Shown one piece after another: positions 339 through 18,984 of a stretch of 34,286 bases of DNA. This stretch comes from a virus (Duplodnaviria; Caudoviricetes): positions 1-34,286 of IMG/VR virus record IMGVR_UViG_3300038825_001186; one strand, 5' to 3'. Both the position numbers and the translations under genes were made by a program. The notes beneath the pieces are model-generated. The model worked only from the letters and a program-made list of their open reading frames with translations, did no database searches and was not told the origin of the DNA. Positions within the stretch are counted from its first letter, which is position 1. Every line of letters begins with the position of its first letter.

Positions 339-358
339 GTTTTGCTTTCGTTATGTGT

Positions 359-390
359 GAGCCGGTAAGGAATTGCTCCCCTACCGGCCC
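359..390 (-). terminator. Stable stem-loop after the capsid/decoration genes (terminator-like or mRNA stabiliser)
   Basis: Minus strand GGGCCGGTAGGGGA-GCAA-TTCCTTACCGGCTC: 14-bp stem with G.U pairs and a GNRA loop. No U-tract follows. Confidence 0.6.
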
Positions 391-911: not shown

Positions 912-1901
912 TTAAATGCCGGTGATATTCGTGGCAACGCCCAAGCGGCGGCGATTGTTCGTAATCTGCTGCACGCCGGCAACCATATAGGCCAGCTGAC
1001 CTAACTGCCCACTGCTCTGCAACGATACAAACGGCGTTTTCTTGAAGTTCGCCTGGCGCATCACACGCAACTGGTGCGAACGCTTGTCCACGAAATATGC
1101 GTGATTAGCGGCAATGTCGTTGTCAGCTACGATTGCAGCACCCATGTAGGCCGGAAACTCTTGACCGTTCAAGCCATTTAGCTGCGTGCCGTTCAACTCA
1201 ACGTATCCCTGCGAGGTTAGCGCAACGCGATACGCGCCGGCAATCGAGTAAGTCGTAAAGATTGCGTCCGTCTTGCCGCCCTGCTTACGAATCGAATCCA
1301 TCACGGCATTAAAACGCGTAATACCGTCAAAGATGTTTGTAGTCGTCTGCGACAAGAACGTGGTAGCAGTGGTATCTTTCTGGTTCTGCCAGAACGTGCT
1401 GGCAGAAGAATCAATACCGCCGATCGTACCCGTGCCGGCATCTGCAATCAAGTCCTGCAAACCAAGCATCGACTTGCCAGACTGCGCGCCACACGCGTCT
1501 TCGTTGATGGTCTTGAGCAAGCTATTCATGGCGTTGTCACCCAACGCACTTAGCAACTCAAATACCTCTTCTGCACCGCTGTTTTCCCAATTTTCCGTAT
1601 CGCTCAACACGATGGGAACAGCGTAGTAACGCCGCTTGTAAAACGCACTCTCAAACGGATCGCGCGGTGACTTGGAAAGCGGATCATACTTGTCGAACGC
1701 TTCAGCCGTTCCAGCACTCGATTCAAGAATGACCTGGATTTCCTTCCCACCGCCATCCACCATCAGAGAGCCGCCACCGCGCTTTCTCAGTGCGTCGATG
1801 ACATTATACGGCTCAAAAATATTGTCGATCTGCGCCGGCTCAATCGTGCGACGAGTCGACGACCAGCGACTATCCCATACTTCACTTGTGGTCTGTGCCA
1901 T
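912..1901 (-). CDS. Major capsid protein (podovirus-type, HK97 fold expected)
   Basis: 329 aa after the scaffold. The pattern IDNIF..N..D.LRKRG..DGG..I, YDPL, E..ENSG.E...LL, GK...GL..., GGID....FWQN, NRRR.GV..I resembles a widespread podovirus capsid family. Confidence 0.85.
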   Translation of the reverse strand: MAQTTSEVWDSRWSSTRRTIEPAQIDNIFEPYNVIDALRKRGGGSLMVDGGGKEIQVILESSAGTAEAFDKYDPLSKSPRDPFESAFYKRRYYAVPIVLSDTENWENSGAEEVFELLSALGDNAMNSLLKTINEDACGAQSGKSMLGLQDLIADAGTGTIGGIDSSASTFWQNQKDTTATTFLSQTTTNIFDGITRFNAVMDSIRKQGGKTDAIFTTYSIAGAYRVALTSQGYVELNGTQLNGLNGQEFPAYMGAAIVADNDIAANHAYFVDKRSHQLRVMRQANFKKTPFVSLQSSGQLGQLAYMVAGVQQITNNRRRLGVATNITGI

Positions 1902-1921: not shown

Positions 1922-2845
1922 CTATTCATACGTCTGGCGTATTTCGTCTAAGGCGGTAGACTTTGATATAACACCACTCGATTGCGTGTTGCGCGCGCCC
2001 GTTGACTGTCCACGCGTTGCCGCACCAGACTTAGCATTACGCCGCTGTGTGCGCTGCGTTTCTCGCGCTTCCCTCGCTTCTTCCGCAGTGCGCCCTGTCC
2101 ACTGACCAACCAACTCGGCCAATGTCCAGTTCTGCCCCGTTTTTGGATTCACCTCGTTCAACGCGTCCCGGTTTCGCTCAATAAACCGCAATGTCGAAGC
2201 ATCTTTACCGATATCTTGCCCAAACACCTCTACCACTTCAGCTATCTGCTTTTGCATTCGCTGCTGCAACTGTGCTTGGTTTTGGCCCTGCAGCTGTTCG
2301 ACCACCTGACGCAACTGGCCTACTTGGTCTAACCCATTTTTCTGTAGTGCCTGTTGTATCTCTTGGCCGATCAAGTTTTGCACATAGTCGATGCCAGCTG
2401 CCTGTTCCATTAATGAACGCTGCTGCTCTGCATCTGTTGCTTGCATGGCTGCACGCCGTAGTGATTCAGCATCTTGCATGGTCTGCTGCTGCACCGTTTG
2501 CGGCTGCGCTTGTTGCTCTTGTAGCTGTTTTAGCTTGGCCGTTTCTTGTGCAACATACTGATCGTGCTGCTGCTTCAACTGGGTGAAATATCTGTCTGCC
2601 TCCCGACGATCACGCTCCAACGGAGATAGGTCGTCATTTGTTGAATTGCGCGTTGATGCGCTTTCTTCTACTTCGACTTCTTCAGCATTAGTCTGCCCTG
2701 CACTCTGTTCTTCGGGGTCGCTTCGGGGTTGATCCAGATCCAGCATCCCCAGGCCCATTTCATTAATGGGTTCTGCAGATCCTTCATTGGTTCCCTCAGT
2801 CGTCTGCCCTTCCGAAACGGCTGGGTCTATTGCCACTTCCGTCAT
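1922..2845 (-). CDS. Capsid scaffolding protein
   Basis: Acidic N-terminus, Gln/Glu-rich coiled coils and basic C-terminus, immediately upstream of the capsid gene. ATG at 2845 is preceded by GAGGTG; the track uses GTG at 2851. Confidence 0.7.
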   Translation of the reverse strand: MTEVAIDPAVSEGQTTEGTNEGSAEPINEMGLGMLDLDQPRSDPEEQSAGQTNAEEVEVEESASTRNSTNDDLSPLERDRREADRYFTQLKQQHDQYVAQETAKLKQLQEQQAQPQTVQQQTMQDAESLRRAAMQATDAEQQRSLMEQAAGIDYVQNLIGQEIQQALQKNGLDQVGQLRQVVEQLQGQNQAQLQQRMQKQIAEVVEVFGQDIGKDASTLRFIERNRDALNEVNPKTGQNWTLAELVGQWTGRTAEEAREARETQRTQRRNAKSGAATRGQSTGARNTQSSGVISKSTALDEIRQTYE

Positions 2846-2860
2846 ACTCACCTCTACATG

Positions 2861-2933
2861 AAAAAACGCGCCAACTATGCCGGTGCAGGGATTAGTGCCG
2901 TAACCCCCACTGACCCGGCACGGTCAGCGCGTT
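2861..2933 (-). promoter_or_regulatory. Structured leader: intrinsic terminator with an alternative two-hairpin fold
   Basis: Long stem AACGCGCTGAC/GTTGGCGCGTT plus GTGCCGG/CCGGCAT ending in a U6 run. The alternative hairpins have complementary loops GTGCCG and CGGCAC. Confidence 0.7.
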
Positions 2934-2972
2934 ATGTTTTGTGTGACCGCGTGGTCACATTGTAAATACTAC

Positions 2973-3440
2973 TTAGTCGTTGTTGTCCGTGAACAACCCT
3001 GGACTCTCTACGTTTCTACTCAGATCGCCTGTTGCGCCCTTATCTACCTTGTCCCAATCAATCTGATCCATGATCTCTTCAACACTATCTGCTGCCAACG
3101 TCTGTGCGCCGGCGCGCCTTTCCATCTGCGCTTTCTGTGCATCAAATGTCTCAGCCTCGATCTGGCTGCGCGTCTTTTGATCGCCCTCTTCTAACCCTAA
3201 CGCCTTTAACTTAGTGCGCTTGTCTGTGGCGTTTTCGTAATACATACCCGTCTGTGGGTCAGGCATTGCTTGGTTATGGCCCTGCGTACACATCAGCCTA
3301 TTAAACGCGCCCATCGAGCCGAAGTTAATGGTCGATTTCTCGCCGCACTCTGGACATTCGCGCTTCTTCATAGGCTGGCCTGTGTAATACACATCCATCT
3401 CAGCATGGCCTAATCCGCATATGTAGTTATGTGTTGGCAT
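2973..3440 (-). CDS. FmdB-like zinc-ribbon protein
   Basis: Likely start is ATG 3440 (MPTHNYICGLGH...ECPECG), 4 nt after the upstream stop. It matches the MPxYxYxC..(C)GH...CPxCG pattern common in phage head operons. Confidence 0.7.
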   Translation of the reverse strand: MPTHNYICGLGHAEMDVYYTGQPMKKRECPECGEKSTINFGSMGAFNRLMCTQGHNQAMPDPQTGMYYENATDKRTKLKALGLEEGDQKTRSQIEAETFDAQKAQMERRAGAQTLAADSVEEIMDQIDWDKVDKGATGDLSRNVESPGLFTDNND

Positions 3441-3444
3441 ATAT

Positions 3445-5733
3445 CTATTCTTCGTTAGCTGTGTAAGCAGCTGCAGCTGCACCAACGCCGACAGGGTATA
3501 ATATCGGTGCAATACCTGCTAATAAATCGCCACTTTCAGGCTTTTCTTTACGCAAATTTTCGTATTCAAATAGCTTCTTACGGTATTCTTGATTGTTTTC
3601 AATCAACTCAGCTTTTTTCTTGATTAATCTTTTTAAATTGTTTTCGTGATATTCTTTTACTTGTTGGTAATTGACTTTATCATATTCACGTTTAGCAAAT
3701 TTCAAATCTTGACTATTGCTTTTTATGGCTGCATTTATCGCATCTATTTCAGGAATCGCTGTTTCCATACTTTGTAAATCCGACTTAGCTTTTCTCTTTT
3801 CTGCTGCTAATCCTTTTGGCGCATCTTGGGGGTCAAATGTTGCATACCTGCTTCTTATTTGAGAAGGATCAAAAACCACATAGATATCAGTCACACCTGC
3901 CCCATCTGAGGTATTTTTAAAAATTGCACCATCATAACCGCCAGCTTCTGCCGTTGCTAACAATTCATTATATGACACATCTCTATATGAATCTCCTTCA
4001 AAATCACGCACAAATGGATTTGTTATTTGCAATTTAACCGGCATAATATTTTCGCCTAAACCACCGCCAATATCTCTTTTTCTTACTTGTCTTTCTAAAT
4101 AATCTTTCTTTTCTAATTCAAAATCTTGCAACTCTTCTTCTAAATACTTGACAGCGTTTTTATCACCTAACGATTTTGCGCGCTGTATTTGTTCTTTTCT
4201 GTTGCTTATTTCAGCGTCAAAATATTCTGAATTTTTATCTGCAAAAAAACTTTCATATCGTTTCTTATCTAATTTTTCTGCATCAGCTAAATCTGCATAT
4301 ACTGTAGCGGTTTCTGGATCAGCAGAAAAAAAGAATCCTCGTCGCGCGCTTGGTGCATCTGTCGTTGCTCCTAGCAATCCCGGATCAAATGACTCGATAT
4401 TGCCTTTTGTGCCATGAAACGCATCTATGTCGAATCCCTGTTTCACCGCTCGATCAAGACGCGCTTTTTCTGCAACATCTAATTGGTCAACAAAATCATT
4501 GTCCAACGTTCGTAATTCTAAAACATTTTCTTGTATTGCTAAATCATACAGTTTTTTGGCTGGCCCTTGACCTGACAACTCGACATCATCAGCAGCAATG
4601 AACTCATCTGATAGTTGCCTTAAAAGTTCATACTCTGTTGTTTCGCCGTTTTTGAATTGATTTAGGATGATGTTAAATCTGTATTGCTCTTCTTCTTCTG
4701 GTATTATTTCTTGTATTTCTTTTCTAATCTTTTCTGTTTCCGCATTAGATTCTGCTATTTTTGCTTTAACTAATGCGCCAGGCGTTTCGCCGGCTGCAAT
4801 TTGTTCTTGTGCTAACTCTACATTGCGCCGCCCTCTGTCCGTTATTGCAGGTTTAGAAACATTGGCCGTTGTCTTTTGCATCTGCCGGGCGCGCGCGTTT
4901 ACGTCAATTATTTCTGCGTTTTTCAGATTGTCTATGATCTGTGGAAAACTTTGAGACAACTCTTTCACTACATCGCCATATTCTGACCTACTGATATGTG
5001 ACATTGGCCCTTGTTCGTCTACTATTGTGCCTTGCCACTTACCTTTTTCTTTTGCCGACTTTGTTAAAAGTAACTGAGCCGGCGCACTCCCATCAGATCG
5101 CATATTAAATTTGACGCGTGCAGGTGCTGGCGTTGTTTCGTTTACAAACTTTGCTAATTCATTTTGTCTTGTTCTATACTGTGTTGCTTCAGCTAACAAA
5201 TCATCTTTTAATGGCCCATCTTCCATTTCTGCAAGAACTGAATCATAAAAATCATTGGTTGGTTTTGACGCATCAACAATATCCTGTGCTTGCTTCGACA
5301 TCTTTGGCATCTTGCTCATCATCGCCGCTGCGCCTATGCCGCCCATAAACTTGCCGGCTTTCCCTACCATCGGAAAAGCATCTTCTACGCCTATAAATGC
5401 GCCTGCCCCCTTGTCTAAAATATCTTGCTCTAATCCCCGACCCAATGCGCTTGCCACTGCGCCAGGCTGCTCAGTAACCGCAGAAACGATGTCGGGTAAT
5501 GTGCGTCTTGCTTGCCGGCCTAACTGCTCTGCCTTGTCCAGCTGACCAATCGACCCAACGACATCAACGCCCGTCTGTATCCCTTCGCCTATAGACTTAG
5601 CTACGCCGCCCGGCGTTTTCAGTATGATCGCTTCTAACAATCGCTGTAAACGCTCTTGCTCGTCTGTAAGCGGTTGCATGCCACGATTGCCAGATGCAAA
5701 TGCCGGCGTTATGTCACCGCTAAATCGGTTCAT
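3445..5733 (-). CDS. 762-aa protein with a C-terminal ADP-ribosyltransferase-like domain (ART-PolyVal-like)
   Basis: Motifs AFHGT...FDP, GFFFS.DP..A..YA, NIMPVKL.I.NP, GYDG.IF.N, YVVFDPSQIRSRYATFDP. Start is coupled to the portal stop (TAATG). Confidence 0.75.
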   Translation of the reverse strand: MNRFSGDITPAFASGNRGMQPLTDEQERLQRLLEAIILKTPGGVAKSIGEGIQTGVDVVGSIGQLDKAEQLGRQARRTLPDIVSAVTEQPGAVASALGRGLEQDILDKGAGAFIGVEDAFPMVGKAGKFMGGIGAAAMMSKMPKMSKQAQDIVDASKPTNDFYDSVLAEMEDGPLKDDLLAEATQYRTRQNELAKFVNETTPAPARVKFNMRSDGSAPAQLLLTKSAKEKGKWQGTIVDEQGPMSHISRSEYGDVVKELSQSFPQIIDNLKNAEIIDVNARARQMQKTTANVSKPAITDRGRRNVELAQEQIAAGETPGALVKAKIAESNAETEKIRKEIQEIIPEEEEQYRFNIILNQFKNGETTEYELLRQLSDEFIAADDVELSGQGPAKKLYDLAIQENVLELRTLDNDFVDQLDVAEKARLDRAVKQGFDIDAFHGTKGNIESFDPGLLGATTDAPSARRGFFFSADPETATVYADLADAEKLDKKRYESFFADKNSEYFDAEISNRKEQIQRAKSLGDKNAVKYLEEELQDFELEKKDYLERQVRKRDIGGGLGENIMPVKLQITNPFVRDFEGDSYRDVSYNELLATAEAGGYDGAIFKNTSDGAGVTDIYVVFDPSQIRSRYATFDPQDAPKGLAAEKRKAKSDLQSMETAIPEIDAINAAIKSNSQDLKFAKREYDKVNYQQVKEYHENNLKRLIKKKAELIENNQEYRKKLFEYENLRKEKPESGDLLAGIAPILYPVGVGAAAAAYTANEE

Positions 5734-7850
5734 TAGCTACGCGCCTGTGCCTCTATCACATCTGATGTGCGCTGCGCGTTTGATCGCACCTGCGCCATTA
5801 GATCCGTTTCGCCTGTACTAGCTGCAGCGGCTCGACCTGCACTAACTGGCCCGGCTGATTCGCCCTGCTGCGATTGCTGTGCGGCCTGTTGATGCTGCTG
5901 CATATGCTGCTGCATCTGCTGATCCAACGCCTGTATCTGCTGTATGGCCTGAGGATTGGCCGGCTGCCCAACCATATCGCGCGCCTGTGCTTGCATTTGC
6001 AGCTGCACATAGACCTGATGCTGCTGGTATTGCGCGTGAACGCCCATGTGCGCTTCGTGGTCTTGCTCTGGCAGCACTTCAATAGGTTCACCCTGCATCA
6101 CCCGGTCATTCTCGTATTGTGCAGCGCGCTCTGCCTCCACGTTGCTCATATCCTGTATAACCGAATCCACATCTTGTATGCCGTTAGCAACAGCGGCCAG
6201 CTTGTCTATTTCCATCTGGTCATAGTTGGGACGCTGCGCTGCATAAGACACAAACGCCATCGTGCGATCACGCTCTAACTGTGCATAAAGCGGTTGCGTG
6301 CTGCCCGTCTTTGTTTCGATGCGATAGTTGTATAGAAAATCGCTGGTGCGTAGTGCGCGTATCACTCGATCATCCCCATCTGGTGCTACGTTTTCAGCAA
6401 AGTTTTCTGGTGTGTATCTTGGATCGCCCATTATTTGAAACGCATTTCGCACAATGTTTTCGTAAAACCCATTTACAGCCGCTTCCATCCACTGCCCGTT
6501 GATCTGTGCAGCTGCAGCCACTACTGCCGCTTCTGTTGCACTGTCCGTTGAGCCGGCTGCCGGCGGTTGCAGTGCAGCTATCTCGCGCTCCATGCCCATA
6601 ACCATGCTGAAATAGTTATACACATCCGGCGGCACGCTTCCCCAGGCTATTTCACGAAAACTGTTTAGGTCTTCTAACCCAATCACCTCACCGTCACGCC
6701 CTGTGCGTAATGTTTCGCCTAATTCGGGATTCTGCTCCAATTCTGCGTTGGAAACTGCGGCCATACGCGATGTACGTTTGAGCATATCCGAAATGCGCGA
6801 TGTCTGTTCAATGATCGCGTTTTGAAGATCCTCCAAATATTTCAAGTGACCTTTGGGGTAAAACGTTTCGGCACTCAGATCAAACTTGATGCACGCAAAC
6901 GGAAACCCCTGCTCAACCAACCACCCGGCTTGGTCTACACCGTTGTCCAGGTCTAACACAGGTTCCGTTGGTTCGCCGGTATCTGGATCAATATCAAAGA
7001 CGGGTTGGTTAAAGGTGTCTACTACTTGTGGGAACACCATCTTGCGATACGGGTGCGGAATATCTTTGATCGGCTTGTCTACGCCGGCAGCAAACGTCAC
7101 CTCGCGCCGCTCGACCCTCATGTGCCACCGCTCCAGCTGCACAAACTCGCCATTAGAAATAGCGTCTGTAATGGCCTGTTGCTCTGCGCTATCGTATCGC
7201 GCACCCATCAGATCGCCATACCCCAACTTGTCTTCCTTCGACATGGCCGTAGGCTTGATGGACTTTTTGTTTTGTATGGTGGGATCGTCTAACAAGAACT
7301 TGAGAGGCACCCAGAACTTTTCACGGATATACCGCTTATCGCCCAACCTGTGTGGACTGCCGGTTGGATCAACGTGAACACAGTGCGGTGCAACGCGCGA
7401 TGCTACAACTAAGTCTTCGGCCATATCGTCATTGGTGACGTATGGAGCGATGATGTCATCGCCTACTGGATTGTAATCAAGTCTGACCCAACCCACGCCG
7501 GTAAACAGCGCGTCGAAAATGGCCTGATGTACGTGTGATTTAAGGTTGCAGATATTCATCCAGCTGGCACTGGCACGCTCTAATATCTCTGCAACACCCT
7601 GGTTTACTTCATCCTCTACACTGAATGATTGCACCGGGTAATTGTGGGCAATCGTGCCGAGTATCTGCCGTACGATGGGATAAAATCGCGAAACCTTTAC
7701 GACATCTTCGCTTCGCAGGTCGCGTATGCGCTTGTCAAATTTCAGGTCATATGCGTCATATAGCTTCTGCCATTCGTCGGCCCGGTCTTTATAGAGCCGG
7801 TCAAGCATCTGACCTTCTGACTTATACCATTTAGCTTCGTATTTGTTCAT
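5733..7850 (-). CDS. Portal protein (P22-like)
   Basis: 705 aa directly after TerL; DAL.TGVGW..L.Y, V.VDP and L.DLQ..I motifs; long Gln-rich C-terminal helix like the P22 barrel. Confidence 0.85.
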   Translation of the reverse strand: MNKYEAKWYKSEGQMLDRLYKDRADEWQKLYDAYDLKFDKRIRDLRSEDVVKVSRFYPIVRQILGTIAHNYPVQSFSVEDEVNQGVAEILERASASWMNICNLKSHVHQAIFDALFTGVGWVRLDYNPVGDDIIAPYVTNDDMAEDLVVASRVAPHCVHVDPTGSPHRLGDKRYIREKFWVPLKFLLDDPTIQNKKSIKPTAMSKEDKLGYGDLMGARYDSAEQQAITDAISNGEFVQLERWHMRVERREVTFAAGVDKPIKDIPHPYRKMVFPQVVDTFNQPVFDIDPDTGEPTEPVLDLDNGVDQAGWLVEQGFPFACIKFDLSAETFYPKGHLKYLEDLQNAIIEQTSRISDMLKRTSRMAAVSNAELEQNPELGETLRTGRDGEVIGLEDLNSFREIAWGSVPPDVYNYFSMVMGMEREIAALQPPAAGSTDSATEAAVVAAAAQINGQWMEAAVNGFYENIVRNAFQIMGDPRYTPENFAENVAPDGDDRVIRALRTSDFLYNYRIETKTGSTQPLYAQLERDRTMAFVSYAAQRPNYDQMEIDKLAAVANGIQDVDSVIQDMSNVEAERAAQYENDRVMQGEPIEVLPEQDHEAHMGVHAQYQQHQVYVQLQMQAQARDMVGQPANPQAIQQIQALDQQMQQHMQQHQQAAQQSQQGESAGPVSAGRAAAASTGETDLMAQVRSNAQRTSDVIEAQARS

Positions 7851-7866
7851 TCATAGTGTATCGTCC

Positions 7867-9246
7867 TTATGCGTACCTGCTACTTGGCTTCTCTGCTATG
7901 ATCTGCTCGATCAACCGCCCTCCGTCAGCAGCAGCAGATTTTGTCCCTTTGCGCGGCTTGTAAACATGATTGATGCCGTATCGTAGCGCATCTGCTCCGT
8001 GGTCATCGCCGCCCTTTGCTACATCTTCCATGTTCCGTGTATCTCTCTGCACACTCAACAGTGAATCCAGTATTGGCTCAGAATACCCCCGAAAAAACTT
8101 GAGCCGGCCATGATGCAGCAAATTGCCTATGTTGCGCCAACCGTTCACCCTATCCATGTTCGCCCGATGCAGGTATACGCCGTTCTCTGTAAACGTATCG
8201 GCCACGGATCTGGCCTGTGACGCTTCCCCTGGCGCGCGCTTCGTCCACATATCGGACGGTGCTAACACTTGCCGCGCTGCGCGTCCTACAACGCCATGCT
8301 TACCACGCGTAAACGGGCAACCCTCGATCATGCGACTGATGCCGCGCGCGTGCTCTGCGCCGGCTCCCGATGCGTAATAGCTGTTTATTACCCACACATC
8401 GTCATCGTAGTCCACAGCGAGAAGGCAGCCGGCAGTAGGATTATTCTCCCCGTAGTCCAGTGCTGCAAATATGACCCAACTATCTGGTATCTCAAACGGA
8501 TCAACCACCAGCGAATCGCGCGATACAGCGAACATTGAACCCGGTGACGCATCCCAATCCCCTTCTAACCATGCTGCTACTAATGCCGGATCACCAACCG
8601 CGTGCAGCCGGTCTATGTATCCCGGATCATTCTCTAACAGTATCTTGTTGTCTTCGACCCGCGCCGGTATGTAGCACCTGACCATACCCGACTTCTTGCA
8701 TCGAAACGGCACATATCCACCTGGCGCACGATCAATGCCAAAGTAGCTTTTCACTTCGGCATGACACCGGCCACCGGGATTAGCCGTTGATACGACCCGT
8801 TTGTTCTTTGCCGGCCCTCGCAGCGTGCCGAGCATCGCCTTATACGCATCAAGACTGCTGTGGTTTGCTAACTCGTCCCACAACAGTATAGAGTACTGAT
8901 GCCCTTGATACCGCGTGACATCGGCCTCGTTGTCCAGATGCCTAAACGACAACTGCGCCCCGTTAGGCCAATGCCACTCACGCCGGCCAACCTTCCATTC
9001 ACCACCCGTTGCCGGGTATATCTCTAAACTCTGCTTGACTACTTCGTCTAACTCTGGATGCGAACGCCTAAACAGGATACCGCGCCAGGCTGCTCCTTGA
9101 TCCAGATCCTGTGCGAAGCTGCCCAGAAGTAGGCTCGTTTTGCCGCCGCCGCGTGCGCCCCCATACAGTAATTCGTCCACAACCTTGCGTGCTGTGATCG
9201 CGTGCAGCTGTGGCCCGACCTGTGGAGACCATACGAAATCGGTCAA
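7867..9246 (-). CDS. terL: Terminase large subunit
   Basis: PQ.GPQ, Walker A YGGARGGGKT, Walker B LLWDE, TANPGG coupling motif, RNase H-like nuclease ALDYG...DHGADALRY. Confidence 0.95.
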   Translation of the reverse strand: MTDFVWSPQVGPQLHAITARKVVDELLYGGARGGGKTSLLLGSFAQDLDQGAAWRGILFRRSHPELDEVVKQSLEIYPATGGEWKVGRREWHWPNGAQLSFRHLDNEADVTRYQGHQYSILLWDELANHSSLDAYKAMLGTLRGPAKNKRVVSTANPGGRCHAEVKSYFGIDRAPGGYVPFRCKKSGMVRCYIPARVEDNKILLENDPGYIDRLHAVGDPALVAAWLEGDWDASPGSMFAVSRDSLVVDPFEIPDSWVIFAALDYGENNPTAGCLLAVDYDDDVWVINSYYASGAGAEHARGISRMIEGCPFTRGKHGVVGRAARQVLAPSDMWTKRAPGEASQARSVADTFTENGVYLHRANMDRVNGWRNIGNLLHHGRLKFFRGYSEPILDSLLSVQRDTRNMEDVAKGGDDHGADALRYGINHVYKPRKGTKSAAADGGRLIEQIIAEKPSSRYA

Positions 9247-14417: not shown

Positions 14418-14568
14418 ACTGATTGATACATCACGCGGCCTATATAAGGAACTTATTGGTGCAGGGTATACCTACAATTTTGACCGGCAGCTGTGGCGCG
14501 CGTGGGCCACTGACCGATCACGCCAGGTAAAAGAATCGCTCAAATACCAACAACAAAAACTACTGTAA
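13972..14568 (+). CDS. Hypothetical protein (start uncertain, possibly MQLAEEE near 14296)
   Basis: Stop is coupled to the sigma-factor start (TAATG); the C-terminal half looks protein-like. Confidence 0.5.
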   Translation: MVSHTNQTRAKERDLRIMSSALAYPDTTKESESQDNYLTLPVKKLWPELSLSEHETNLARIHSAASSITPEDTELQHPLLSLYSGLQMLSTGKLSLTEQQLNASWQLLMQLAEEEIARLTQERKEREARKQYKPAAGVEITLRLPPPVELIDTSRGLYKELIGAGYTYNFDRQLWRAWATDRSRQVKESLKYQQQKLL

Positions 14569-15317
14569 TGAACAAAACCACACCCCCACTGCCAATTGAA
14601 GAAGAGCGGCAGCTATTAAAACGCTTCCAAGAGACGAACGATGAGCGTGCTATTGAGCAGGTAATCGCCGCCAATACGCCACTGGTCATAAAGATCGTGC
14701 ATGAGATGTGCTCCAAGAACCATGACGACTACATTGCAGCCGGCAGAATCGGCTTGTTTAGAGCAGCGCAGCGGTTCGATCTGTCGTTAGATATTCGTTT
14801 TGTCAATTACGCCCATCACTGGATTCGCAAAGAGATCCGCGACCAACTGCATGACCAGCGTATTAAGATTCCTGCTATAATACAGCACGACTTCGCACGC
14901 GCACACAACACGATGGGACGGTGCGGTGATCCTGCACCACCAGAGGGATACACCGACGAATACAAACGTGCCTGGACAATACACGCCATGCGCCACGCCA
15001 CATTGCATATAGGCGATAAAACAGATGCCACGCCCGAATACGATATACCTGACGAACAACCGAATGCGTTAGACAAACTCTGCGCGTTGAACAGAGAAGA
15101 CGTTTTACAGCATTTAGCTGACAACCTCGATCCACGCACAGCCGATTGCATCGCGCGGTATTTCAACATTATTCCCAATGATGAAAAATGCACTATGCAA
15201 ACGCTGGGCGATGAACACGGAGTGTCACGCGAGGCCATACGCCAGACGATTAAAAAAGGTCTTACAAAACTCAAGTTTTCTATGCGCCACAACAACCGAA
15301 TTAATGAACATATCTAA
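14568..15317 (+). CDS. RNA polymerase sigma-70 family factor
   Basis: Region 2: N.PLVIKIV, DYIAAGRIGLFRAAQRFD...RFVNYAHHWIRKEI. Region 4 HTH: TMQTLGDEHGVSREAIRQTIKKGLTKLK. Confidence 0.92.
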   Translation: MNKTTPPLPIEEERQLLKRFQETNDERAIEQVIAANTPLVIKIVHEMCSKNHDDYIAAGRIGLFRAAQRFDLSLDIRFVNYAHHWIRKEIRDQLHDQRIKIPAIIQHDFARAHNTMGRCGDPAPPEGYTDEYKRAWTIHAMRHATLHIGDKTDATPEYDIPDEQPNALDKLCALNREDVLQHLADNLDPRTADCIARYFNIIPNDEKCTMQTLGDEHGVSREAIRQTIKKGLTKLKFSMRHNNRINEHI

Positions 15318-18910: not shown

Positions 18911-18984
18911 TGGTGGCGAGGCGTGGAGTCGAACCACGATTCCCAGGAAATGAACCTGATGAGTTACCGTTACTCTACCTCGCG
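18911..18984 (-). tRNA. tRNA-Met (CAT), initiator-like
   Basis: CGCGAGG TA GAGT AACGGTA ACTC A TCAGG TTCATTT CCTGG GAAT CGTGG TTCGACT CCACG CCTCGCC A CCA: full cloverleaf with encoded CCA. Confidence 0.92.

What the first reader, a model, noticed from the sequence alone, without database searches (positions are those of the whole stretch)
2861..2933. Complementary-loop versus terminator RNA switch in front of the scaffold/capsid genes
Seen (minus strand): AACGC GCTGACC-GTGCCG-GGTCAGT GGGGGTTA-CGGCAC-TAATCCCT GCA CCGGCAT A GTTGGCGCGTT TTTT. Fold A is two directly adjacent hairpins whose 6-nt loops, GTGCCG and CGGCAC, are perfect complements. Fold B opens hairpin 1 and pairs it with the 3' arm into a long stem ending in U6, a terminator about 15 nt before the scaffold start. 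The two folds exclude each other. Known: P22 scaffolding protein regulates its own synthesis post-transcriptionally; HK022 put RNA is a two-adjacent-hairpin antiterminator; phi29 pRNA uses complementary loops intermolecularly. Inference: a cis switch that sets scaffold/capsid output, perhaps read by the scaffold or the adjacent FmdB-like protein, or a self-multimerising RNA.
Basis: partly seen in the sequence, partly recalled or inferred. Interest (0 to 1): 0.75.

Follow-up and report, generated by a model that had tools for sequence, protein, structure and literature searches.

The report
Kissing-loop attenuator before phage capsid genes
An uncultured aquatic phage carries, just before its capsid-building genes, an uncatalogued folded RNA whose two hairpin loops and a competing terminator-like arm stay complementary across relatives, so it likely acts as a stop-or-go switch, probably thrown when copies of the RNA pair with one another.

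Summary
In five related phage lineages the two adjacent hairpins keep their 7/7-8 bp stems and zero-base linker. Their loops change together through four sequence pairs (GTGCCG/CGGCAC, GTGCGG/CCGCAC, GTGCAG/CTGCAC, 7-nt GTCACGG/CCGTGAC), and the terminator-like 3' arm changes with loop 1. There is no Rfam match.

Most likely it is a transcription attenuator: the terminator has to start at loop 1, and loop 2 blocks that entry. A coarse geometry check says the kiss cannot easily form within one molecule with both stems intact. Loop 2 also stays exposed on the terminated RNA. So I favour pairing between copies, giving RNA-dose-dependent read-through. This step is inferred and untested.

Against: the element is in only 10 of 23 distinct junctions of its clade and none beyond it. 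Nothing ties it to the scaffold or FmdB-like protein. No termination data exist. The scan noted a similar architecture before on another genome (e1-8997949, unreviewed).

The parts
2973..3440 (-). Upstream gene, FmdB-like zinc-ribbon protein, 155 aa
   Evidence: TIGR02605 E 0.008, below cut-off, in the window; E 1e-5 in relative L082. Present in relatives with and without the element.
2942..2959 (-). Upstream hairpin P0 (7 bp) followed by an A/C-rich linker; probably a separate module
   Evidence: -10.3 kcal/mol, z -3.5. Clear hairpin in W, L122 and L126, weak in L131 and L132. Retained in L127, which lacks the element.
2915..2933 (-). 5' arm of the terminator-like long stem; overlaps hairpin 1 and its loop
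   Evidence: Paired with the 3' arm in the minimum-energy fold of all 6 sequences folded.
2909..2928 (-). Hairpin 1 (7 bp); predicted antiterminator
   Evidence: 41 of 42 pairs kept in 6 sequences; 5 of 7 columns change on both sides.
2916..2921 (-). Loop 1 (GTGCCG): partner of loop 2 and predicted entry point for the 3' arm
   Evidence: Four loop types in five lineages; 5-7 of its bases pair with the 3' arm in fold B.
2887..2908 (-). Hairpin 2 (8 bp; 7 bp in three lineages), present in both folds
   Evidence: 42 of 42 pairs kept (7 columns counted from the base); 5 of 7 columns change on both sides; nested in fold B.
2895..2900 (-). Loop 2 (CGGCAC), strict Watson-Crick complement of loop 1
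   Evidence: 37 of 37 loop-loop pairs are Watson-Crick, none G-U. Cognate loop duplex -7.8 to -10.5 kcal/mol; non-cognate -0.2 to -7.1.
2865..2883 (-). 3' arm of the terminator-like stem; can also form a small hairpin of its own (2883-2871)
   Evidence: For each 5' arm the most stable duplex is with a 3' arm of its own loop type.
2861..2866 (-). U6 tract, predicted termination site
   Evidence: 5-6 U directly after the stem in the five lineages; 7 in L121.
2849..2855 (-). Shine-Dalgarno-like sequence of the next gene, outside both folds
   Evidence: Sequence; not paired in the predicted folds.
1922..2845 (-). Probable scaffolding protein, 307 aa (inferred from position and acidic, Gln-rich composition)
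   Evidence: No PHROG, Pfam or NCBIfam hit; conserved position before the capsid gene.
912..1901 (-). Major capsid protein, 329 aa
   Evidence: NF033394 capsid_maj_Podo E 4e-48; phrog_9953 E 2e-30.

Best explanation
The element is a conserved phage RNA that likely works as a transcription attenuator in front of the probable scaffold gene and the capsid gene, with read-through probably switched on when loop 2 of another copy of the same RNA kisses loop 1 of the growing transcript. Steps: (1) predicted: hairpin 1 and then hairpin 2 fold first during transcription. (2) Predicted: the 3' arm emerges loop-1-complement first, so it must enter through loop 1 to unzip hairpin 1 and build the terminator before polymerase leaves the U tract. 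(3) Shown by covariation: loop 2 is kept as an exact complement of loop 1 and cannot extend into the stems, so it is a dead-end blocker. (4) Inferred: with a zero-base linker the kiss is strained within one molecule, while every finished transcript refolds to fold B and displays loop 2 at its tip. Accumulated late transcripts would then block termination on new ones, giving positive feedback that delays and then sharpens scaffold and capsid synthesis.
For: Three-way covariation of loop 1, loop 2 and the 3' arm in five lineages with four loop types. Among the junctions printed, none kept the two stems with broken loop complementarity. Complementarity stops at the loop edges in the four loop types (sequences). 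Stem lengths (7 and 7-8 bp) and the zero linker are conserved. The folding series gives hairpin 1 + hairpin 2 first and fold B later in all 6 sequences. With 11-12 nt held in the polymerase, fold B leads the hairpin-1 fold by 1.2-9.8 kcal/mol in four lineages, about the size of the loop duplex (7.8-9.3). G-U pairs and a sense fold 4-12 kcal/mol more stable than antisense point to RNA of this strand. A generous geometric model closes the zero linker only with about 80 degrees of bend at both junctions, whereas the kissing motifs named in PMC4707685 are 180 and 120 degrees (passages). Precedents: a kissing loop blocks a terminator in guanidine-IV riboswitches (PMC11611296, abstract and two sections); a terminated short RNA acts in trans on its own locus in IsrK and P4 CI (PMC4825925, abstract and passages).
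Against: No termination or kissing has been measured. The element is dispensable: absent from 13 of 23 distinct junctions in its clade, including phages with 96% capsid identity, and from 41 of 41 more distant ones. In L132 fold B leads by 13.6-18.7 kcal/mol, more than the loop duplex (10.5); in L122 and L126 it also wins when only 9-10 nt are protected. The switch would therefore have to be kinetic. Trans capture within 1-5 s needs roughly micromolar RNA at assumed on-rates of 1e5-1e6 per M per s (the rates are assumptions). The geometry model is coarse and ignores frayed stems. Only five lineages were found and registers were set by structure, so no formal covariation test was run. A terminator ahead of the genes needed in most copies is counter-intuitive, and no promoter was located.
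Confidence: 0.45

Rival explanations
1. It is the same attenuator, but the kiss forms within one molecule. Stems would fray at the junction, or Mg2+, temperature or a protein (scaffold, FmdB-like or a host factor) would stabilise the kiss and set read-through.
For: The same covariation. The outermost hairpin-1 pair is G-U or A-U in 4 of 6 sequences. Guanidine-IV uses a cis kiss. P22 scaffold autoregulation exists (titles of Casjens and Adams 1985 and Wyckoff and Casjens 1985 seen in a reference list only).
Against: A 35-45 A gap remains at bends of 30-45 degrees per junction, about six or more unpaired bases, while both stems are almost fully conserved. No conserved unpaired pocket for a ligand is evident. 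FmdB-like and scaffold genes do not track the element.
Confidence: 0.25
2. It is not a regulated switch. Fold B is a terminator, 3'-end stabiliser or RNase III-type processing stem, and hairpins 1 and 2 are a folding intermediate or a small RNA released from it.
For: Fold B is 20-32 kcal/mol more stable than the bare two-hairpin fold. The stem is about 18-20 bp long. Other clades have different terminator-like hairpins at the same junction.
Against: It does not explain strict loop 1-loop 2 complementarity through three independent loop changes, nor the compensatory changes in hairpin 1.
Confidence: 0.15
3. The hairpin 1-hairpin 2 unit is a structural, self-assembling RNA: a 14-15 bp dumbbell with complementary loops at opposite ends that polymerises into rings or filaments, with the 3' arm as an off-switch.
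For: The zero linker favours end-to-end stacking, and the geometry favours head-to-tail pairing. Natural RNAs under 200 nt form cages and filaments (bioRxiv 10.64898/2026.07.01.735769, first fifth of the text).
Against: The full-length RNA is predicted to collapse to fold B, burying loop 1. No processing site that would remove the 3' arm was identified. The phage has an ordinary large terminase, and many relatives lack the element.
Confidence: 0.1
4. It is a DNA-level element (origin, packaging or operator site) or a translation switch for the scaffold gene.
For: Other clades have repeated palindromes at this junction. The 3' strand of hairpin 2 is pyrimidine-rich and resembles an anti-Shine-Dalgarno sequence.
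Against: G-U pairs and strand asymmetry. Loop sequences vary while pairing is kept. The ribosome site is outside both folds, and by inspection the anti-SD match is only 4-5 bp and does not covary.
Confidence: 0.05

Closest known systems
Guanidine-IV riboswitch (PMC11611296; abstract, introduction and first results section read)
   Same: A kissing loop formed during transcription prevents completion of an intrinsic terminator and gives read-through.
   Different: No Rfam match. The downstream genes are phage head genes, not a guanidine exporter. The loops vary in sequence, the stems abut with no linker, and no ligand pocket is evident.
IsrK of Gifsy-1 prophage and CI RNA of satellite phage P4 (PMC4825925; abstract and passages read)
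   Same: A short RNA made from the regulated leader acts in trans on longer transcripts of the same locus; alternative folds; phage setting.
   Different: IsrK mainly switches on translation, and CI promotes termination by pairing with seqA and seqC. Here a 6-7 bp loop-loop contact is predicted to block termination, and the target is head morphogenesis.
Plasmid antisense kissing control (ColE1 RNA I/II, pT181 and pIP501 attenuation, IncI repZ pseudoknot); recalled, not read here
   Same: Loop-loop recognition decides between two folds during transcription, and loop sequence defines specificity groups.
   Different: Those use an RNA from the opposite strand that extends to a long duplex. Here the blocker is a same-strand hairpin that cannot extend beyond the loops.
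phi29 pRNA and engineered RNAI/II-inverse nanorings (PMC4707685; passages read)
   Same: Two complementary loops in one RNA that are better placed to pair between copies than within one.
   Different: No three-way junction or motor-binding helix, embedded in a terminator, and in a phage with a normal terminase.
HK022 put RNA (recalled, not read here)
   Same: Two nearly adjacent hairpins in a phage transcript linked to antitermination.
   Different: put binds RNA polymerase and acts on distant terminators, and I recall no complementary loops in it. Here hairpin 1 directly overlaps one terminator.

Membership tests
Intrinsic (Rho-independent) terminator | GC-rich stem directly followed by a U tract on the sense strand | tested here: met
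   Fold B followed by 5-6 U in five lineages; the only such strong site in the window.
Intrinsic (Rho-independent) terminator | Transcript 3' ends at the U tract | tested here: inconclusive
   Only assembled contigs of RNA runs were available; they cannot show ends.
Transcription attenuator (general kind) | Earlier-folding helix that overlaps the terminator's 5' arm and is conserved | tested here: met
   Hairpin 1: 41 of 42 pairs, 5 of 7 columns with two-sided change; folding series.
Transcription attenuator (general kind) | A signal changes read-through | not testable with these tools
   Needs in vitro or in vivo termination assays.
Guanidine-IV riboswitch | Match to a catalogued covariance model | tested here: not met
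   No Rfam hit at gathering score; best local hits are ftsZ-DE E 0.31 and bglG-cis-reg E 2.1, far below threshold.
Guanidine-IV riboswitch | Upstream of guanidine export genes such as mepA | tested here: not met
   Downstream genes are a probable scaffold and the major capsid protein.
Guanidine-IV riboswitch | Kissing loop that competes with the terminator | tested here: met
   By covariation only; works-like, not membership.
IsrK / P4 CI self-acting phage RNAs | A stable short RNA from the same leader acts in trans on its own transcript | not testable with these tools
   Geometry favours trans pairing, but no RNA species or activity was measured.
IsrK / P4 CI self-acting phage RNAs | Sequence or model homology | tested here: not met
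   No Rfam match at this site.
phi29-type packaging RNA | About 120-170 nt RNA with a three-way junction serving a phi29-type motor (recalled) | tested here: not met
   42-nt two-hairpin core inside a terminator; the genome encodes a Terminase_6N large subunit and a P22-like portal.
HK022 put RNA | Binds RNA polymerase and suppresses many downstream terminators (recalled) | not testable with these tools
   No second strong terminator was found in the window, which does not favour a processive role.
P22-type scaffold autoregulation site | Free scaffolding protein binds its own message (recalled; titles only seen) | not tested
   No binding test was possible; the scaffold gene is equally present in phages without the element.

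The most novel reading that the evidence does not exclude
The element is a protein-free and ligand-free RNA counter. Each late transcript leaves one exposed loop 2, and once enough have built up they kiss loop 1 of nascent transcripts and open the capsid operon. It would be a self-activating timer for head assembly, with lineage-specific loop codes that keep co-infecting relatives from cross-activating. The 42-nt core may also be a natural dumbbell that chains into rings.
Probability: 0.3. Interest if true: 0.9.

Novelty: new variant of a known kind. Interest (0 to 1): 0.7.

Why it matters
How phages time and proportion scaffold and capsid synthesis is known mostly from protein-based control in a few model phages. 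This 73-nt element would do it with RNA alone and is small enough to test completely in vitro. If the kiss is between copies, it is an attenuator that senses its own concentration, and I found no description of one in the searches run. The four natural loop pairs are predicted to be largely orthogonal, so they would be ready-made parts for RNA feedback circuits. Near-identical phages with and without the element offer a natural comparison.

Tried and rejected
Rfam: nothing at this site. INPHARED phages: no capsid relative.

Wider family: two degenerate pattern scans of IMG/VR returned only contigs already found (12 and 1 stretches). A relaxed descriptor over 84 more distant loci gave no hit of this architecture, and I looked at the junction in 38 of the 84. 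Eight pattern matches in the Latescibacterota genome G002 are at chance level (control 16); 5 of the 8 were folded and lack the structure, and the other 3 were only covered by no later check. A DNA search of five handles searched one record only, with no match.

Expression: only assembled contigs were served. In run X8 one contig (depth 20) runs from upstream genes and stops at 2873 in the 3' arm, with scaffold and capsid contigs at depth 3-4. In run X7 a contig spans 2689-2951 across the element. One stop in one study is not evidence.

Promoter: no sigma-70-like site in the junction. A TTTACA/TGTAAA word recurs in several junctions but on either strand, so it was not interpreted. A leader peptide was rejected by inspection: there is no conserved start or frame, and U-tract length shifts the frame between W and L121.

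Covariance model R1 was built with the structure shifted by one column and was never used. The scaffold tree did not finish.

Literature: ten searches found no description of this motif; four returned no papers. The alignment files of the IMG/VR structured-RNA catalogue (PMC10690425) could not be read, so the motif may be among its 8,495 unnamed candidates. The four readable files showed no match to the terms tried.

Full report
Context. The window is a 34.3 kb phage contig and the whole record held. On the minus strand run terminase (7867-9246), P22-like portal (5733-7850), an ART-PolyVal protein (3445-5733), an FmdB-like zinc-ribbon gene (2973-3440), the element, a probable scaffold gene (1922-2845) and the major capsid gene (912-1901). 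The scaffold label is inferred from position and composition; no library matched it.

Observation. The quoted sequence, both folds and the distances are right. Fold B scores z -4.9 against shuffles. The two-hairpin, complementary-loop descriptor hits only this site in the window, against one hit in 20 shuffled windows. It is the only strong stem plus U-run in the window. Hairpin 2 persists inside fold B, so the real alternative is hairpin 1 versus the terminator.

Relatives. Capsid, scaffold and FmdB searches of viral, metagenome and genome collections gave 164 redundant loci with the capsid gene, the scaffold gene and upstream DNA, or 64 distinct junctions. The element is in 10 of 23 junctions with about 73% or more capsid identity and in 0 of 41 below that. 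It was not found in 84 more distant loci either. On the capsid tree it occurs in all three subgroups of a 100/100-supported clade of 18 rows, interleaved with branches that lack it. This fits an ancestral element lost several times, or exchange by recombination; I did not test between these. Phages without it usually have a 12-22 nt junction with only a ribosome site, so their scaffold gene is likely read from upstream transcripts.

Covariation. Five lineages (W, L122, L125/L126, L131, L132) show four loop pairs, one with 7-nt loops. L007, L016 and L021 were recognised by position before the descriptor existed, and no junction printed kept the stems with mismatched loops, so the result is not only an artefact of selecting for complementarity. 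In six sequences hairpin 1 keeps 41 of 42 pairs and hairpin 2 keeps 42 of 42, each with two-sided changes in 5 of 7 columns. All 37 loop-loop pairs are Watson-Crick. The 3' arm follows loop 1 but tolerates G-U pairs and bulges. In L126 it differs from loop 2 at three positions, so loop 2 and the arm are separately tuned to loop 1 rather than being copies of each other. Swapped combinations are weaker than cognate ones for both contacts, the closest cross-pair being L126 loop 1 with L131 loop 2 (-7.1 against -9.3 kcal/mol). Registers were set by structure and the sample is small, so these are counts, not a significance test.

Mechanism. Folding of growing transcripts predicts hairpins 1 and 2 first and fold B only as the 3' arm appears. 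The arm's first bases are the complement of loop 1, and the bases that pair with the free 5' end come last, next to the U tract. Loop 1 is therefore the likely entry point, and a loop 2 kiss would block it (inferred). At the modelled decision point the two states are within about one loop-duplex energy in four lineages but not in L132. The final equilibrium is fold B in every case, so the switch would be kinetic. A coarse helix model with freely chosen backbone positions closes the zero-base linker only at about 80 degrees of bend at both junctions. The kissing motifs named in PMC4707685 are straight or bent to 120 degrees. Since finished transcripts display loop 2 at the tip of fold B, the simplest partner is another copy. 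With assumed on-rates of 1e5-1e6 per M per s, capture in 1-5 s becomes likely at around 1-2 micromolar RNA, 100-500 copies in a 0.1-0.5 fL cell. This gives positive feedback that would hold back head genes until upstream late transcripts have accumulated. I put this at 0.45, a cis kiss aided by fraying or a factor at 0.25, a plain terminator or processing stem at 0.15, a structural multimer at 0.1 and other readings at 0.05.

Against. Nothing was measured. The element is dispensable in close relatives. No promoter was found. RNA-run contigs gave one stop inside the 3' arm and one contig across the element, which is inconclusive. The FmdB-like and scaffold genes do not track the element.

Comparison. 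It works like the guanidine-IV riboswitch, where a kissing loop blocks a terminator (PMC11611296; abstract and two sections read), but fails membership on model match and gene context. The trans reading resembles IsrK and P4 CI RNA (PMC4825925; abstract and passages), with a different outcome. The pRNA, nanoring and manA-cage parallels (PMC4707685 passages; bioRxiv 10.64898/2026.07.01.735769, first fifth of the text) bear on the multimer rival. HK022 put, plasmid antisense control and P22 scaffold autoregulation are recalled; for P22 I saw only two titles in the reference list of PMC5529062.

Novelty. There is no Rfam family and no description in ten literature searches. The alignment files of PMC10690425 (main-text passages read) could not be read and may list it as an unnamed candidate. 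An unreviewed note of this scan (e1-8997949) describes a similar architecture before scaffold and capsid genes in another genome. Sequence look-ups did not link it to this window, so it may be a distant or independent case; I could not check it. Note e1-10462381 gave the lead to RNA-only cages.

Verdict. A real, conserved and uncatalogued phage RNA; a new variant of kissing-loop attenuation, confined so far to one clade; interest 0.70.

Noticed in passing
L082, L085, L142, L146, L147, L150, L239, L242 (FmdB-scaffold junction): A sister clade (about 70% capsid identity) carries a different conserved long hairpin with a U-rich tail at the same junction. Its apical stem shows compensatory changes and its loop is conserved.
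   Followed up: no
L117:1925-2060; also L096, L164, L168, L170, L184: A third clade carries a terminator-like stem, then a hairpin whose loop is complementary to the ribosome-binding region of the scaffold gene: a possible translational pseudoknot (z -4.8; sequences).
   Followed up: partly
L147, L085, L151, L242, L096, L184 junctions: Insertions of 130-330 nt with tandem palindromic repeats upstream of those hairpins; they look like operator or origin arrays.
   Followed up: no
L126 versus L127: Close relatives differ by about 65 nt that remove the element but keep the upstream P0 hairpin and the ribosome site.
   Followed up: partly
window 3445-5733: 762-aa protein with an ART-PolyVal domain (E 2e-9) between portal and the FmdB-like gene; this slot varies in length and content among relatives.
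   Followed up: no
window 14568-15317: Phage-encoded sigma-70-type factor with regions 2 and 4; a candidate for late transcription.
   Followed up: no
L199 / G002; G042: The only cellular genome with a close capsid relative (49% identity) is a Latescibacterota MAG. The wider capsid family is in 2 of 168 genomes of that phylum. A weak host hint only.
   Followed up: partly
window 348-390 (minus strand, approximate): A GC-rich hairpin without a U tract lies between the 162-aa gene after the capsid gene and the next gene (seen by eye).
   Followed up: no
window 18914-18984: One tRNA gene (Rfam RF00005).
   Followed up: no
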